Origin: a virus
Lineage: Duplodnaviria > Caudoviricetes
Strand: one strand, 5' to 3'
Length of the DNA: 64,000 bases
Virus record (IMG/VR): IMGVR_UViG_3300014059_000970
Location: 58,805 to 122,804 of that record
The notes under the pieces were generated by a model. It had not been told where the DNA came from and made no database searches. It worked only from the letters and a program-made list of their open reading frames with translations. Positions 30,974-63,998 of the stretch are shown piece after piece. Position numbers and translations under genes: made by a program. Positions within the stretch are counted from its first letter, which is position 1; each line of letters starts with the position of its first letter.

Positions 30974-31001
30974 ATTATACACTATTTATTTCGATTGTCA
31001 A
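30974..31001 (-). promoter_or_regulatory. Sigma70-type promoter
   Basis: TTGACA-N16-TATAAT. Confidence 0.75.
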
Positions 31002-31302: not shown

Positions 31303-31380
31303 CTAGACACATTTTGGGAGTCGAACCCTTTAAAAAACTTTCACATTTTTTATTTACTATTTAATTGCTGTTCGTGCCTA
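31303..31380 (-). ncRNA. ACAGCAA-family RNA, copy with T-arm cargo
   Basis: TAGGCAC-GAACAGCAA ... GGG-TTCGACT-CCC ... GTGTCTAG. Confidence 0.7.
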
Positions 31381-31382
31381 AG

Positions 31383-31455
31383 TGGGGCCTACTGGTTACG
31401 CTCCAGTTCCTCTAGCTTTTCAGACTAGCGCTTCTACTAAGTTAGCTTCGACCCC
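31383..31455 (-). tRNA. tRNA-Phe(GAA), non-canonical T loop AGCGTAA
   Basis: CTAGT-CTGAAAA-GCTAG. Confidence 0.82.
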
Positions 31456-31459
31456 ATAA

Positions 31460-31572
31460 CTAGATACATTTTAAGGGTTTTACCATTAAACTACACCACC
31501 ATTAGGCGGTGACAGGACTCGAACCTGCGTCACTACATTAAAAGTGTAATTTTAAACTGCTGTTAGTATCTA
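31460..31572 (-). ncRNA. ACAGCAA-family RNA carrying a circularly permuted tRNA-Lys(UUU)
   Basis: TAGATAC-TAACAGCAG, then anticodon arm, T arm, acceptor stem closed by TAAT, D arm, and GTATCTAG. Confidence 0.85.
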
Positions 31573-31574
31573 AG

Positions 31575-31647
31575 CGGCTATTACGAGGATTGCACTCGCC
31601 ACGGTCTGCTTGACGGGCAGATATCACCTCTAGGTGAACTAATAGCC
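31575..31647 (-). tRNA. tRNA-Asp(GTC), atypical (C33, T loop TGCAATC)
   Basis: GGCTATT/AATAGCC-G73 and TCTGC-CCGTCAA-GCAGA. Confidence 0.75.
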
Positions 31648-31651
31648 AAAA

Positions 31652-31740
31652 CTAGATAGTAGTGCCCTTTAGGTGGGCCTCCGCACCTTTGCCTTTCGGC
31701 GTTACTACAACGTATTATGGTTGATTGCTGTAACTATCTA
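31652..31740 (-). ncRNA. ACAGCAA-family RNA, copy with GC-rich multi-hairpin cargo
   Basis: TAGATAG-TTACAGCAA ... GCC-GAAA-GGC ... CTATCTAG. Confidence 0.7.
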
Positions 31741-32296: not shown

Positions 32297-32299
32297 AAG

Positions 32300-32375
32300 T
32301 GCAACCGGAGGGATTTGAACCCACATTGTGTCATCGCTTAAAAGGCGAGTGCATTTGCCATTCTGCCACAGTTGC
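32300..32375 (-). tRNA. tRNA-Lys(TTT)
   Basis: GCAACTG/CGGTTGC-A and loop CTTTTAA. Confidence 0.88.
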
Positions 32376-32642: not shown

Positions 32643-32713
32643 AGTTGCAAAAAGGAATCGAACCCAATCTTTCAGCTTTGAGGGCTGACGTGCTTCCGTT
32701 ACACTATCGCAAC
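32643..32713 (-). tRNA. tRNA with UCA anticodon (opal-suppressor-like)
   Basis: GTTGCGA/TTGCAAC-U73 and TCAGC-CCTCAAA-GCTGA, with a weak T stem. Confidence 0.65.
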
Positions 32714-33210: not shown

Positions 33211-33238
33211 ATTATACACTATTTAAAACGATTGTCAA
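33211..33238 (-). promoter_or_regulatory. Sigma70-type promoter driving the main tRNA/ncRNA array
   Basis: TTGACA-N16-TATAAT. Confidence 0.78.
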
Positions 33239-62465: not shown

Positions 62466-62511
62466 CTAGACCCACTATTACTTTTTCTAAGTATTTTGCT
62501 GTTGGGGTCTA
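62466..62511 (-). ncRNA. ACAGCAA-family RNA, array unit 4
   Basis: TAGACCC-CAACAGCAA-...-GGGTCTAG. Confidence 0.75.
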
Positions 62512-62517
62512 TTGTGC

Positions 62518-62560
62518 CTAGGCTCACTTATCACTTAGGATAGATTGCTGTACGAGCCTT
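62518..62560 (-). ncRNA. ACAGCAA-family RNA, array unit 3
   Basis: AAGGCTC-GTACAGCAA-...-GAGCCTAG. Confidence 0.72.
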
Positions 62561-62588
62561 ATCGCCGGATTGTCAATTCTAAAATTAT

Positions 62589-62643
62589 CTAGACAGGTTT
62601 TAAAACATTAATGGTGTTTATTTTTGATTGCTGTATCTGTCTA
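62589..62643 (-). ncRNA. ACAGCAA-family RNA, array unit 2
   Basis: TAGACAG-ATACAGCAA-...-CTGTCTAG. Confidence 0.75.
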
Positions 62644-62654
62644 ATATGTTAAAT

Positions 62655-62712
62655 CTAGACGCGGTTTTTCACCAATTGAAAGTGGAGGTATTTTGGTTGC
62701 TGTATGCGTCTA
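62655..62712 (-). ncRNA. ACAGCAA-family RNA, array unit 1
   Basis: TAGACGC-ATACAGCAA-...-GCGTCTAG, starting 5 nt after the DUF2828 stop. Confidence 0.75.
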
Positions 62713-62717
62713 ATATA

Positions 62718-63998
62718 TTATAGTACGATTTGTTCGTACCTTGGTCCATTTAGGACTTCGTGCATTAACTCAACTGCGCTCTTATGCTCAACTGCATACT
62801 TAAATGCTGATTGATTGCTACCGCTAATAAGTGTTACCTTATCGTCGTACTTGGTCGCAGGACTTTCCTGACGGGCATTAACATTCCAGAATACAACATG
62901 TGGCAATTCGTATCCAGCTTCCTTAAACTTCCTTTGAGCGGTCTCAAAGTTAGTTTCACTAGAATTACTCATTTGACTATCAAATTGCATGTCTGAAATA
63001 ATATACAATACCGCAGGCATTTCTTCTTGAGTACACTTTGCTTCTACGGCAGCCCTTAAGATTGCATCAAAAGCGGCAGCTAAATCTGTATTATAACCAA
63101 CGTCGTGGTGCTCTACGAAATTTAACTTATCAAATAAATCTCCGCCTTGGATTGTAACAACCGATGGCCTGTTAGTAAAGGTCATATTAGTGTTAGCAAA
63201 ACGACCCTTATTCCTTTCTGCAAAGTATACCGCTAGAGTTGTTGAAACGCTCATTGGGCGTCCCATCATAGAGCCCGAAACATCTGCTAGAACTAACGCA
63301 TTTGTATCGTTAGTATAATCTGGCAAAGCATTCCATAATGCTGTCATAGCATCTAAAACAGCCTTTGTTGGGCGCTCACGACGATATCCCTTAAATAACT
63401 CGTCATAAATCTCATAAGTCATTAAGGTGCCGGCGTTAATCTTCTTTTCGCCCTTTTCTACTGCTTGTAGATATTCTGCATATCCAATTTCATCATGCTT
63501 GCTAAAAGCCTTAACATGCTTACGGTGTGCTTGTGATGGTAGCTTTGAATAATCAATATTGCTCCACTCACGGCTACTCATCTTTTGCTCTAGCAAACCG
63601 ATATACTTACGCAAAGCGCTAACCCTCTTACGATATTGCTTTGGAGCCATATCCCAAAAGCTCATTAGACTACGCGCCTTACGGATTGTTTCCTTTGAAG
63701 ACGCATTTTCTGATGGTAGCCACTTTGCTAAAAGGCTTACGCTTTCGCCCTTAACCATATTTTGTTCGTCTAAAATGAATTGGTCATATAGAATTTCCGC
63801 AGTTTCTTCAACTACTGGAATATCATCAAAACGGCCATATTCTGGCACATAACCAACAACCTTTAGTAACAATTCCTTGTCTAAAGACTTTAGAGTTTCT
63901 TGGAAAACCTTACGCTCTCCTGCACCACCACGAATATCCCGCGCCCATAGCAGGATTCGAATAGCAACATCCTGATTTTCAACCCAAGCCTTAACAAA
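62718..63998 (-). CDS. DUF2828-type TROVE-like/vWA protein (Ro60-related), N-terminus beyond window
   Basis: Frame is open to the window edge. Motifs WARDIRGGAGER, YGRFDD, LAKWLPSE, DVSGSM (MIDAS), NTD, ISDMQFD and VFWNV. Confidence 0.85.
   Translation of the reverse strand, partial: FVKAWVENQDVAIRILLWARDIRGGAGERKVFQETLKSLDKELLLKVVGYVPEYGRFDDIPVVEETAEILYDQFILDEQNMVKGESVSLLAKWLPSENASSKETIRKARSLMSFWDMAPKQYRKRVSALRKYIGLLEQKMSSREWSNIDYSKLPSQAHRKHVKAFSKHDEIGYAEYLQAVEKGEKKINAGTLMTYEIYDELFKGYRRERPTKAVLDAMTALWNALPDYTNDTNALVLADVSGSMMGRPMSVSTTLAVYFAERNKGRFANTNMTFTNRPSVVTIQGGDLFDKLNFVEHHDVGYNTDLAAAFDAILRAAVEAKCTQEEMPAVLYIISDMQFDSQMSNSSETNFETAQRKFKEAGYELPHVVFWNVNARQESPATKYDDKVTLISGSNQSAFKYAVEHKSAVELMHEVLNGPRYEQIVL

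What the first reader, a model, noticed from the sequence alone, without database searches (positions are those of the whole stretch)
31460..31572. Complete circularly permuted tRNA-Lys(UUU) mounted on the ACAGCAA scaffold
Seen, 5'->3' on the minus strand: TAGATAC TAACAGCAG TTTAAAA, then anticodon arm [TTACA-CTTTTAA-TGTAG], TGAC, T arm [GCAGG-TTCGAGT-CCTGT], acceptor stem closed by a tetraloop [CACCGCC-TAAT-GGTGGTG], TA, D arm [GTTT-AATGGTA-AAAC], and C CTTAAAAT GTATCTAG. Re-ordering gives a near-canonical tRNA-Lys opened between positions 26 and 27. Known: YrlA RNAs are permuted tRNA mimics in which the Ro-binding stem replaces the anticodon arm. Here the anticodon arm is kept. tRNA-Lys is the target of the anti-phage nucleases PrrC and PARIS AriB. 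Inference: this is either a non-chargeable decoy or bait displayed by DUF2828, or a precursor matured by cleavage and ligation.
Basis: partly seen in the sequence, partly recalled or inferred. Interest (0 to 1): 0.92.

Follow-up and report, generated by a model that had tools for sequence, protein, structure and literature searches.

The report
Sealed tRNA-Lys mimic on Y-like RNA
A wastewater phage encodes a 113-base RNA that is a complete tRNA-Lys look-alike written in rotated order, with its amino-acid end looped shut and its two ends clamped by a short conserved "handle"; the handle marks RNAs that travel with a protein predicted to fold like Ro60, so this is most likely a new variant of the known tRNA-mimicking Y RNAs.

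Summary
The sequence at 31460-31572(-) reads exactly as described. Re-ordered, ARAGORN calls it tRNA-Lys(UUU). A covariance model built only from 19 similar RNAs of other viral contigs scores it 80.6 bits (E 2e-15). It is identical in contigs from four independent studies, so it is not an assembly artefact.

It belongs to a recurrent class: a 7-bp closing stem, an ACAGCAR box, and a permuted tRNA with a capped acceptor. All four tRNA helices covary across the class. Covariation puts the class's break at 28/29, inside the anticodon stem, not at 26/27; this element allows both.

The class co-occurs with DUF2828 genes: 22/31 records against 4/40 controls. A 96%-identical full-length homologue of the window's truncated DUF2828 protein is predicted to fold like Ro60.

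The closest known relative is YrlA. This RNA differs by keeping the anticodon loop, by its handle and by its protein family. It scores 34 bits on Rfam's YrlA model (cut-off 69).

Expression, protein binding and the decoy role are untested. I found no support for maturation into a working tRNA.

This scan has noted the same RNA-protein pairing many times on other DNA; I found no publication describing it.

The parts
31566..31572 (-). Handle, 5' strand of the closing stem (UAGAUAC)
   Evidence: Pairs 7/7 with 31461-31467. The same stem position covaries among the seven handle RNAs of the window.
31557..31563 (-). Handle box ACAGCAG (ACAGCAA in the other six copies), 2 nt after the stem
   Evidence: DNA search hit at 31557-31563. 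It is invariant ACAGCA in the alignment of 19 RNAs from other viral contigs.
31550..31556 (-). A/U-rich 5' linker (UUUAAAA)
   Evidence: Sequence. Its possible pairing with the 3' linker is not conserved in relatives.
31533..31549 (-). Anticodon arm UUACA-CUUUUAA-UGUAG; anticodon UUU at 31540-31542
   Evidence: ARAGORN on the re-ordered sequence. In the class, the lower three pairs are 89.5% paired, with double-sided changes at all three.
31529..31532 (-). Variable loop UGAC
   Evidence: ARAGORN cloverleaf; R1 alignment.
31512..31528 (-). T arm GCAGG-UUCGAGU-CCUGU
   Evidence: The class T stem is 100% paired.
31494..31511 (-). Acceptor stem closed by a UAAU tetraloop (CACCGCC-UAAU-GGUGGUG); no CCA
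   Evidence: The class acceptor is 97% paired and all 7 pairs covary.
31477..31493 (-). U8 A9 and the D arm GUUU-AAUGGUA-AAAC
   Evidence: The class D stem is 98.7% paired.
31468..31476 (-). C26, then C27'U28' (able to pair with A42 G43), then the A-rich 3' linker
   Evidence: R1 aligns CU with AG as the 2-bp closing helix. In the class these two pairs are 94.7% paired, with 12 and 6 double-sided changes.
31460..31467 (-). Handle, 3' strand GUAUCUA plus the trailing G
31652..31740 (-). Handle RNA A: UAGAUAGU / UACAGCAA / non-tRNA cargo / ACUAUCUAG
   Evidence: Sequence; fold z -2.9.
31303..31380 (-). Handle RNA C: UAGGCAC / ACAGCAA / cargo with a T-arm-like hairpin / GUGUCUAG
   Evidence: Sequence; weak R1 match of 16.9 bits.
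62466..62712 (-). Four short handle RNAs in tandem, starting 5 nt after the DUF2828 stop codon
   Evidence: Sequence; ACAGCAA hits at 62496, 62545, 62628 and 62697.
62718..63998 (-). DUF2828 + DUF7788 (vWA-like) gene, 5' end cut by the end of the contig; proposed protein partner
   Evidence: Pfam matches PF11443 (3.5e-25) and PF25043 (2e-40), no TROVE. AF2 model of the 96%-identical full-length homologue: pLDDT 89.9. Its 13 best PDB matches are all Ro60.
33211..33238 (-). Perfect sigma-70 consensus promoter upstream of the tRNA/small-RNA array that holds the element
   Evidence: 12/12 match, TTGACA-16-TATAAT. That it drives the element is inferred.
31383..31455 (-). tRNA-Phe(GAA) starting 4 nt after the element; its 5' processing would set the element's 3' end (inferred)
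   Evidence: Rfam tRNA 37.6 bits.
32299..32375 (-). The phage's conventional tRNA-Lys(UUU), not similar to the mimic (44/70 identities)
   Evidence: ARAGORN and Rfam 56.2 bits; comparison.

Best explanation
What it is: the element is a gene for a roughly 113-nt non-coding RNA of the Y-RNA type.

How it is built (shown from sequence and covariation):
- The two ends form a 7-bp stem followed by a single-stranded ACAGCAG box. This is the handle.
- The interior folds as a whole tRNA-Lys(UUU) look-alike in rotated order: anticodon arm, T arm, acceptor stem sealed by a UAAU loop, then D arm.

How it most likely works (inferred):
1. It is transcribed with the phage's tRNAs from the consensus promoter at 33238.
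2. It is cut out by the tRNA-processing enzymes that release its neighbours.
3. Its handle docks on the phage's DUF2828 protein, which is predicted to fold like Ro60.
4. The tRNA-shaped body then serves as the effector-binding module, as in Rsr-YrlA.

Because the acceptor end is sealed it cannot be charged. It still presents an authentic anticodon stem-loop and elbow to proteins that read tRNA-Lys.

My favoured function, about 0.3 in absolute terms, is a competitive decoy or bait for host nucleases that cut anticodon arms, of the PrrC or PARIS-AriB type. It would work alongside the phage's own replacement tRNAs.
For: Structure of this element:
- Exact sequence, and ARAGORN calls the re-ordered form tRNA-Lys.
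- Independent model R1 scores 80.6 bits, E 2e-15.
- Rfam YrlA aligns the T arm, capped acceptor and D arm at 34.3 bits.

Structure across the class (19 RNAs from other contigs):
- 96.7% of cells are paired, 19 of 21 pairs change on both sides, and 0 of 500 shuffles reach this. Slid controls give 27-43% paired.

Link to the handle and to DUF2828:
- Seven copies of the handle lie in the window. Four begin 5 nt after the DUF2828 stop codon.
- DUF2828 is found in 22/31 records that carry such RNAs (12/13 of those at least 90% complete), against 4/40 control records. Fisher p = 2e-7.
- Mycobacteriophage Whirlwind gp55 is 45% identical and annotated as a Ro-like RNA-binding protein in the duplicate GenBank record of this phage and in most related records. 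It is followed by three handle RNAs, one of them a permuted tRNA.
- The AF2 model has pLDDT 89.9 and pTM 0.89. Its 13 best PDB matches are all Ro60 over the full length (1yvr E 1.8e-8, TM 0.57; also Thermus phage phiLo Ro60).

Precedent: Ro60 binds Y RNAs through their terminal stem, and YrlA carries a sealed tRNA-like module (PMC4201824; 10.1101/312249; PMC12135203).

For the decoy idea:
- AriB cuts tRNA-Lys(UUU), Thr(UGU) and Asn(GUU), all of which contain U36-A-A-U39 (PMC12409363).
- The mimic has U36-A-A-U39, while the phage's own tRNA-Lys(UUU) has G39.
- Class anticodons lean towards these three: 13/36 against 58/573 ordinary tRNAs of the same loci.

The DNA is real: it is identical in contigs of four studies.
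Against: - There are no RNA data. Transcription, RNA ends and stability are inferred only.
- Binding to DUF2828 rests on gene linkage and on analogy with Ro60. Here the element lies 31 kb from the gene.
- 9 of 31 carrier records show no DUF2828. Most are fragments, but one is 99% complete.
- The anticodon skew is weak once the model is set aside: 4/12, p 0.03, or 0.10 without this element. The counts ignore relatedness, and the target set was chosen after I had seen the tally.
- Other Lys-type members do not keep U39.
- The host is unknown, and no PrrC or PARIS system is known to face this phage.
- At 40-41 the mimic has G-U, not the C-A of the E. coli cleavage site.
Confidence: 0.7

Rival explanations
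1. The same RNP, but the tRNA-like body is an adaptor rather than a decoy. It would tether a tRNA-recognising host enzyme (an exoribonuclease, a modification or repair enzyme, or the CCA-adding enzyme) to the Ro-like ring. That would steer RNA decay or repair during infection, as the Y RNA does for PNPase in the Ro60-Y RNA-PNPase complex.
For: - D. radiodurans Y RNA tethers Ro60 to PNPase.
- Thermus phage phiLo Ro60 with its Yrl RNAs forms ternary complexes with host PNPase (PMC12135203).
- YrlA is a substrate of tRNA-modifying enzymes (PMC4201824).
- The class shows at least 17 anticodons and also non-anticodon hairpins at the same place. This fits a generic tRNA-shape adaptor.
Against: - A generic adaptor would not need a canonical 7-nt anticodon loop with U33 and R37, yet 36 of 68 class members keep one.
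- No RNA-repair genes (RtcB, RNA ligase) lie in the held record.
- No enzyme partner is indicated by gene context here.
Confidence: 0.25
2. It is a precursor of a working tRNA. RNase P and a 3' nuclease open the UAAU cap and CCA is added. This would give a chargeable tRNA-Lys held together by the handle, or one re-joined by ligation, like the permuted or split tRNA genes of some algae and archaea.
For: - The re-ordered sequence is a near-canonical tRNA-Lys.
- The two neighbouring tRNA genes I read are not followed by CCA, so the host must add CCA after transcription.
- About a third of class members carry (N)CCA at the start of a longer cap loop.
Against: - The cap is only 4 nt and has no CCA.
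- YrlA, the solved precedent, keeps its loop closed (10.1101/312249).
- The record has no RtcB, no RNA ligase (PF09414) and no CCA-adding enzyme.
- The phage already encodes a conventional tRNA-Lys(UUU) 0.8 kb away.
- A 7-bp helix plus a bound protein emerging from the anticodon stem should hinder use on the ribosome (inference).
Confidence: 0.07
3. The handle is only a processing or stability cassette of the tRNA operon, and the permuted tRNA is a by-product of a junction between two tandem tRNA genes. There would be no specific protein partner and no function of its own.
For: - Tandem tRNA pairs give partial matches to the class model (35 bits).
- Two metagenome contigs carry tandem tRNAs whose T arm and D arm are identical to those of the element.
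- The element lies 31 kb from the DUF2828 gene.
Against: - All five helices are perfect.
- The acceptor strands, which would come from two different tRNAs, pair 7/7.
- The class recurs in many unrelated viral contigs with compensatory changes.
- The invariant single-stranded ACAGCA box points to sequence-specific recognition.
- The class is strongly linked with DUF2828.
Confidence: 0.08

Closest known systems
YrlA, the tRNA-like Y RNA bound by bacterial and phage Ro60/Rsr (Rfam RF02553; Chen et al. 2014, PMC4201824; Wang et al. 2018, bioRxiv 10.1101/312249)
   Same: - Terminal stem joining the 5' and 3' ends.
- Interior in the order T arm, loop-closed acceptor stem, D arm.
- No free CCA.
- Encoded in genomes that carry a Ro60-shaped protein.
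- The Rfam model aligns these three arms.
   Different: - It scores 34.3 bits against a gathering score of 69.
- YrlA lacks the anticodon loop, whereas this RNA keeps a canonical 5-bp/7-nt Lys-UUU arm.
- The connecting module is a 7-bp stem plus ACAGCAR, not the YrlA or Y RNA Ro-binding helix.
- The protein is DUF2828 + DUF7788 by Pfam, not TROVE.
Thermus phage phiLo Ro60 with Yrl1/Yrl2 (PMC12135203; PDB 9KOP, 9L5Y)
   Same: A phage-encoded Ro60-type ring with phage-encoded partner RNAs. The phiLo structure is among the best fold matches of the DUF2828 model (TM 0.54-0.56).
   Different: - Those RNAs were picked by a CGAA bulge motif and are not described as tRNA-like.
- That protein was identified as a Ro60 homologue in UniProt and has the canonical HEAT-repeat ring plus vWA domain.
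D. radiodurans Yrn1 (Chen et al. 2014)
   Same: A Y RNA that can be drawn with an anticodon-arm-like 5-bp hairpin.
   Different: That loop has 6 nt, no full D arm is evident and no V arm is present, and the arms are arranged differently. Here all four arms are canonical.
Dictyostelium Class I RNAs (Rfam RF01414; Kjellin et al. 2021, PMC7919456)
   Same: A short stem joining the 5' and 3' ends, followed by a conserved box. The Rfam consensus reads UACAGCAAU, the same box as here.
   Different: - The match is not significant as a whole (13.7 bits, E 8.9).
- Those RNAs are eukaryotic, 42-65 nt long, have variable non-tRNA interiors, and their known binder is an RRM protein.
- A shared origin is untested.
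Circularly permuted and split tRNA genes (Cyanidioschyzon merolae, Nanoarchaeum; from my own knowledge)
   Same: The 3' part of the tRNA is encoded upstream of the 5' part.
   Different: Those are matured by the splicing endonuclease, a ligase and RNase P into ordinary chargeable tRNAs. Here the acceptor is sealed by 4 nt and no such machinery was found.
Phage tRNAs that neutralise tRNA-cutting defences (T5 tRNAs against PARIS AriB; PMC11464382, PMC12409363)
   Same: A phage tRNA-operon product with a Lys-UUU anticodon arm, the arm that AriB cuts at 40/41.
   Different: Those are working tRNAs that escape cleavage. This RNA cannot be charged and would have to act by competition.

Membership tests
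YrlA (Rfam RF02553) | Reaches the curated gathering score of the covariance model (69 bits) | tested here: not met
   34.3 bits at 31450-31556(-).
YrlA (Rfam RF02553) | tRNA-like module in the order T arm, loop-closed acceptor, D arm, enclosed by a terminal stem | tested here: met
YrlA (Rfam RF02553) | No anticodon loop; the anticodon-stem equivalent runs on into the Ro-binding stem | tested here: not met
   A 5-bp/7-nt hairpin CUUUUAA is present.
YrlA (Rfam RF02553) | Partner is a TROVE-domain Ro60/Rsr encoded nearby | tested here: inconclusive
   No TROVE match in the record. DUF2828 + DUF7788 is present instead, and its predicted fold matches Ro60 over the full length. The gene lies 31 kb away.
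DUF2828-linked stem + ACAGCAR handle RNAs (noted repeatedly by this scan; I found no publication) | A 7-bp stem joining the 5' and 3' ends, with an ACAGCAR box 0-3 nt after the 5' strand | tested here: met
   UAGAUAC-UA-ACAGCAG ... GUAUCUA.
DUF2828-linked stem + ACAGCAR handle RNAs (noted repeatedly by this scan; I found no publication) | A DUF2828 gene in the same genome, with handle RNAs next to it | tested here: met
   Gene at 62718-63998(-), with four handle RNAs from 5 nt after its stop codon. Class-wide, 22/31 against 4/40.
DUF2828-linked stem + ACAGCAR handle RNAs (noted repeatedly by this scan; I found no publication) | Matches a covariance model built from independent members that carry a permuted tRNA | tested here: met
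   R1: 80.6 bits, E 2e-15, positions 1-117 of 117.
DUF2828-linked stem + ACAGCAR handle RNAs (noted repeatedly by this scan; I found no publication) | The RNA is expressed and bound by the DUF2828 protein | not testable with these tools
   Only assembled contigs were available. No RNA-protein prediction tool was on hand.
tRNA (Rfam RF00005) | Contiguous cloverleaf with open acceptor ends, at or above 29 bits | tested here: not met
   Native order gives 25.6 bits with a mispaired acceptor, and ARAGORN finds nothing. Only the re-ordered sequence is called a tRNA.
Ro60 (for the protein partner) | Helical-repeat ring plus a C-terminal vWA domain | tested here: met
   AF2 model with pLDDT 89.9. Its 13 best PDB matches are all Ro60 over about 500-570 columns, followed by vWA domains. 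This is a prediction made on a 96%-identical full-length homologue, because the window's copy lacks its N-terminus.
Ro60 (for the protein partner) | Sequence membership of Pfam TROVE (PF05731) | tested here: not met
   No match. No PDB sequence match at E <= 1.
Permuted tRNA genes matured to working tRNAs | Removable linker between the 3' and 5' acceptor ends, CCA end formed, and joining of the outer ends | tested here: inconclusive
   4-nt cap without CCA. No RtcB, RNA ligase or CCA-adding enzyme in the record, which is 81% complete. Host enzymes and RNA ends were not testable.

The most novel reading that the evidence does not exclude
Phages use a Ro60-like ring (DUF2828) loaded with sealed, non-chargeable copies of whole tRNAs as an anti-defence particle. 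Each cargo would display the anticodon arm of a tRNA that host immune nucleases cut (Lys-UUU here; Thr-UGU and Asn-GUU elsewhere). The particle would soak up or trap PARIS-, PrrC- or RloC-type nucleases while the phage's own variant tRNAs keep translation going.
Probability: 0.2. Interest if true: 0.85.

Novelty: new variant of a known kind. Interest (0 to 1): 0.64.

Why it matters
Ro60-Y RNA particles are known from animals to bacteria, but what their tRNA-like modules bind is still open.

This variant adds three things:
- Its protein shares no detectable sequence family with Ro60 (Pfam DUF2828, function unknown) yet is predicted to have the Ro60 fold.
- Its RNA handle is absent from Rfam.
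- Its cargo is a whole tRNA, anticodon arm included.

An intact, identifiable anticodon arm makes the question "what does the tRNA-like module recognise?" directly testable with defined tRNA-binding proteins. It also ties the particle to the current picture of tRNAs as a battleground between phages and bacterial immunity.

It would also give DUF2828 a function, and perhaps explain the unexplained ACAGCAA box of the Dictyostelium Class I RNAs.

Tried and rejected
- Close relatives in GenBank phages: megablast found none. Distant blastn matched only the neighbouring tRNA-Phe.
- The search for related loci with the single DUF2828 protein found nothing in viral contigs.
- The exact T-arm/acceptor string hit only an ordinary tRNA-Leu.
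- The one metagenome scan, anchored on the element's T loop and D arm, hit only tandem ordinary tRNAs. I therefore found no diverged ortholog, and covariation could be tested only across the class, not within orthologs.
- Sequencing runs: only Logan contigs were available. They show presence in four studies but no RNA ends, no strand, no expression and no sequence variation in the element.
- The supplement of Chen et al. 2014 is not held, so I could not check whether DUF2828-type mycobacteriophages were in their phage list.
- Alternative fold in which UUUUAA of the anticodon loop pairs with the 3' UUAAAA, as the YrlA model aligned it: -20.3 against -24.7 kcal/mol, and the pairing is absent from relatives. 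Rejected.
- Linker helix UUUAA/UUAAA: not conserved in relatives.
- Origin from the phage's own tRNAs: best identity 48/70, and 44/70 to its tRNA-Lys(UUU). It is not a recent copy.
- Anticodon enrichment for the AriB targets: clear with model-derived members (p 7e-5), weak in a model-free tally (p 0.03; 0.10 without this element). I keep it only as a lead.
- No complex prediction was run, because the tool takes proteins only.

Full report
OBSERVATION

- The outer stem UAGAUAC/GUAUCUA closes the RNA.
- ACAGCAG follows two bases after the 5' strand.
- The interior holds, in order: a 5-bp/7-nt hairpin with loop CUUUUAA, a 4-nt variable loop, a T arm with UUCGAGU, a 7-bp acceptor stem closed by UAAU, U8-A9, and a D arm with AAUGGUA.

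Re-ordered, ARAGORN calls it tRNA-Lys(ttt). In native order it finds nothing. The MFE fold keeps the outer stem, the anticodon hairpin, the T arm and the acceptor (z -3.6).

Rfam gives two sub-threshold matches:
- YrlA at 34.3 bits (gathering score 69), aligned through the T arm, capped acceptor and D arm.
- tRNA at 25.6 bits (gathering score 29), through the anticodon arm, T arm and 3' acceptor strand.

SURROUNDINGS

The window is the last 64 kb of a 122.8-kb IMG/VR virus record. The element lies in a dense minus-strand array of tRNAs and odd small RNAs. A perfect TTGACA-16-TATAAT promoter at 33238-33211 lies upstream, and the next such promoter is at 31001.

Two more RNAs with the same stem-plus-ACAGCAA scaffold flank the element: 31740-31652 and 31380-31303. 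Four short ones follow the stop codon of a DUF2828 gene at 62712-62466.

That gene (62718-63998, cut by the contig end) matches Pfam DUF2828 and DUF7788 (vWA-like) but not TROVE.

The DNA is real. Contigs of four runs from four studies (wastewater, aquaculture, activated sludge, sludge) cover the element without a single difference.

A RECURRENT CLASS

A pattern scan of viral contigs for ACAGCAR, then 24-40 nt, then a T loop returned many RNAs of the same design. A second scan that also required CUUUUAA returned about a dozen further Lys-type members, some in giant-virus bins.

I aligned 19 members from other contigs, leaving the window out (A3). On this alignment:
- T stem: 100% paired.
- Acceptor: 97% paired, and all seven pairs change on both sides.
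- D stem: 98.7% paired.

The anticodon stem needs a finer reading.
- Its lower three pairs are 89.5% paired and all covary.
- Its upper two positions (42-43) pair only about half the time with the two bases 5' of the hairpin.
- The same two positions pair 94.7% of the time with the two bases that follow position 26 after the D arm, with 12 and 6 double-sided changes.

So in the class the rotation point lies at 28/29, inside the anticodon stem, and the handle emerges from a three-way junction. In the window's element both registers can form. Nearest-neighbour energy prefers the contiguous hairpin (-24.7 against -18.6 kcal/mol), and homology prefers the split one. Either way a 5-bp anticodon stem with a canonical loop is present.

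A covariance model built from A3 (R1) scores the window's element 80.6 bits, E 2e-15, over the full length. The next best matches are tandem ordinary tRNAs at 35 bits or less.

Across 100 sources R1 found 90 matches, of which 68 are distinct handle-bearing RNAs. Of these, 36 carry a canonical anticodon hairpin (7-nt loop, U33, R37), with 17 different anticodons.

THE PROTEIN PARTNER

DUF2828 is present in 22 of 31 records that carry such RNAs, and in 12 of 13 of those at least 90% complete. It is present in 4 of 40 records whose pattern hit was not such an RNA (Fisher p 2e-7).

In GenBank phages, 695 of 50,697 records encode a homologue. The best matches are mycobacteriophage proteins at 45% identity, annotated 'Ro-like RNA binding protein'. 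In phage Whirlwind that gene is followed by three handle RNAs, the middle one a permuted tRNA with CCA in its cap. Rfam YrlA scores it 38 bits, again below the cut-off.

The window's copy lacks its N-terminus, so I modelled a full-length homologue that is 96% identical (P0001) with 51 relatives. The model has pLDDT 89.9 and pTM 0.89. Its 13 best PDB matches are all Ro60 over the full length: Xenopus, Deinococcus, human and Thermus phage phiLo. vWA domains come after them. No PDB sequence is detectably similar.

COMPARISON WITH WHAT IS KNOWN

YrlA RNAs are tRNA mimics with a closed acceptor. They lack the anticodon loop and were found next to TROVE-annotated Ro60 genes in bacteria and phages (PMC4201824; 10.1101/312249).

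Thermus phage phiLo Ro60 binds two phage Y-like RNAs and host PNPase (PMC12135203).

I found no paper that links DUF2828 to RNAs.

The handle box matches the conserved box of the Dictyostelium Class I RNAs. The Rfam RF01414 consensus reads UACAGCAAU, but the overall match is not significant.

The element is therefore a variant of the Y RNA/YrlA kind, with a different protein family by sequence, a different handle, and a cargo that keeps the anticodon arm.

FUNCTION

Nothing here shows expression or binding.

The sealed 4-nt cap without CCA argues against a working or maturable tRNA-Lys. So do the absence of RtcB, RNA ligase and CCA-adding enzyme from the record and the presence of a conventional tRNA-Lys(UUU) at 32299-32375.

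For the decoy idea there are leads only.
- PARIS AriB cuts tRNA-Lys(UUU), Thr(UGU) and Asn(GUU) at 40/41, and these tRNAs share U36-A-A-U39 (PMC12409363).
- The mimic has U36-A-A-U39, whereas the phage's own tRNA-Lys(UUU) has G39.
- Those three anticodons make up 13 of 36 class cargos, against 58 of 573 ordinary tRNAs in the same loci (p 7e-5).
- The skew shrinks to 4 of 12 (p 0.03; 0.10 without this element) in a model-free tally. It also ignores relatedness.

The adaptor reading, in which the RNA tethers a tRNA-recognising enzyme to the ring, remains a serious rival.

EARLIER NOTES OF THIS SCAN

The same pairing of DUF2828 with stem-plus-ACAGCAA RNAs, including whole permuted tRNAs, has been noted many times on other genomes. 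I re-tested the main claims here independently: the handle, the gene linkage, the Ro60 fold and the variety of anticodons.

Noticed in passing
window 31574-31651 (-): The spacer between handle RNA A and the element folds as a cloverleaf. It has an 8-bp acceptor, a 5-bp D-like hairpin with a 4-nt loop, an anticodon arm UCUGC-CCGUCAA-GCAGA (GUC, but C33 instead of U33) and an odd T loop UGCAAUC. ARAGORN and the Rfam tRNA model do not call it (MFE z -2.4).
   Followed up: partly
window 31383-31455 (-): A tRNA-Phe(GAA) with an unusual T loop (GCGUAAC), found only by Rfam (37.6 bits) and missed by ARAGORN. It starts 4 nt after the element.
   Followed up: no
window 33211-33238 (-) and 30974-31001 (-): Two perfect sigma-70 consensus promoters (TTGACA-16-TATAAT) with nearly identical surrounding sequence. 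They bracket the tRNA/small-RNA block.
   Followed up: no
L031, L035, L054, L066, L083, L094, L101, L120, L133; L122:2892-3017: About a third of the class members have a longer acceptor cap that begins with (N)CCA followed by an A/U-rich spacer. Either they mimic the CCA end or the cap can be opened. The window's element is not of this type.
   Followed up: partly
class alignment A4 (loci L004-L102): Cargo anticodons lean towards U36 (readers of ANN codons): 24/36 against 204/573 ordinary tRNAs. They also lean towards Asn-GUU, Thr-UGU and Lys-UUU, the published AriB targets. The effect is weak in a model-free tally.
   Followed up: partly
L057:1129-1235, L088:2098-2205: Some members carry, in place of the anticodon arm, a 5-bp hairpin with a shared 6-nt loop AUAAAC and covarying stems (CUAAC/GUUAG against CUAUC/GAUAG).
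   Followed up: no
L149:2140-2300, L150:760-925: Tandem ordinary tRNAs in two metagenome contigs share the element's T arm and D arm exactly. The junction of two tandem tRNA genes has the same order as the permuted cargo, which suggests how such cargo could arise.
   Followed up: no
L122:2820-3090 (Mycobacterium phage Whirlwind): Three unannotated stem-plus-ACAGCAA RNAs lie just after gp55, a DUF2828 protein whose product line reads 'RNA-binding protein' in this record and 'Ro-like RNA binding protein' in the duplicate GenBank record.
   Followed up: partly
window 31720: One wastewater run carries G>A at this place, inside handle RNA A. It was the only difference seen in 461 bases across four studies.
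   Followed up: no
window 32643-32713 (-): ARAGORN calls a tRNA-SeC(UCA), which would read the stop codon UGA, in the same array. Rfam scores it as a tRNA at 47.8 bits.
   Followed up: no
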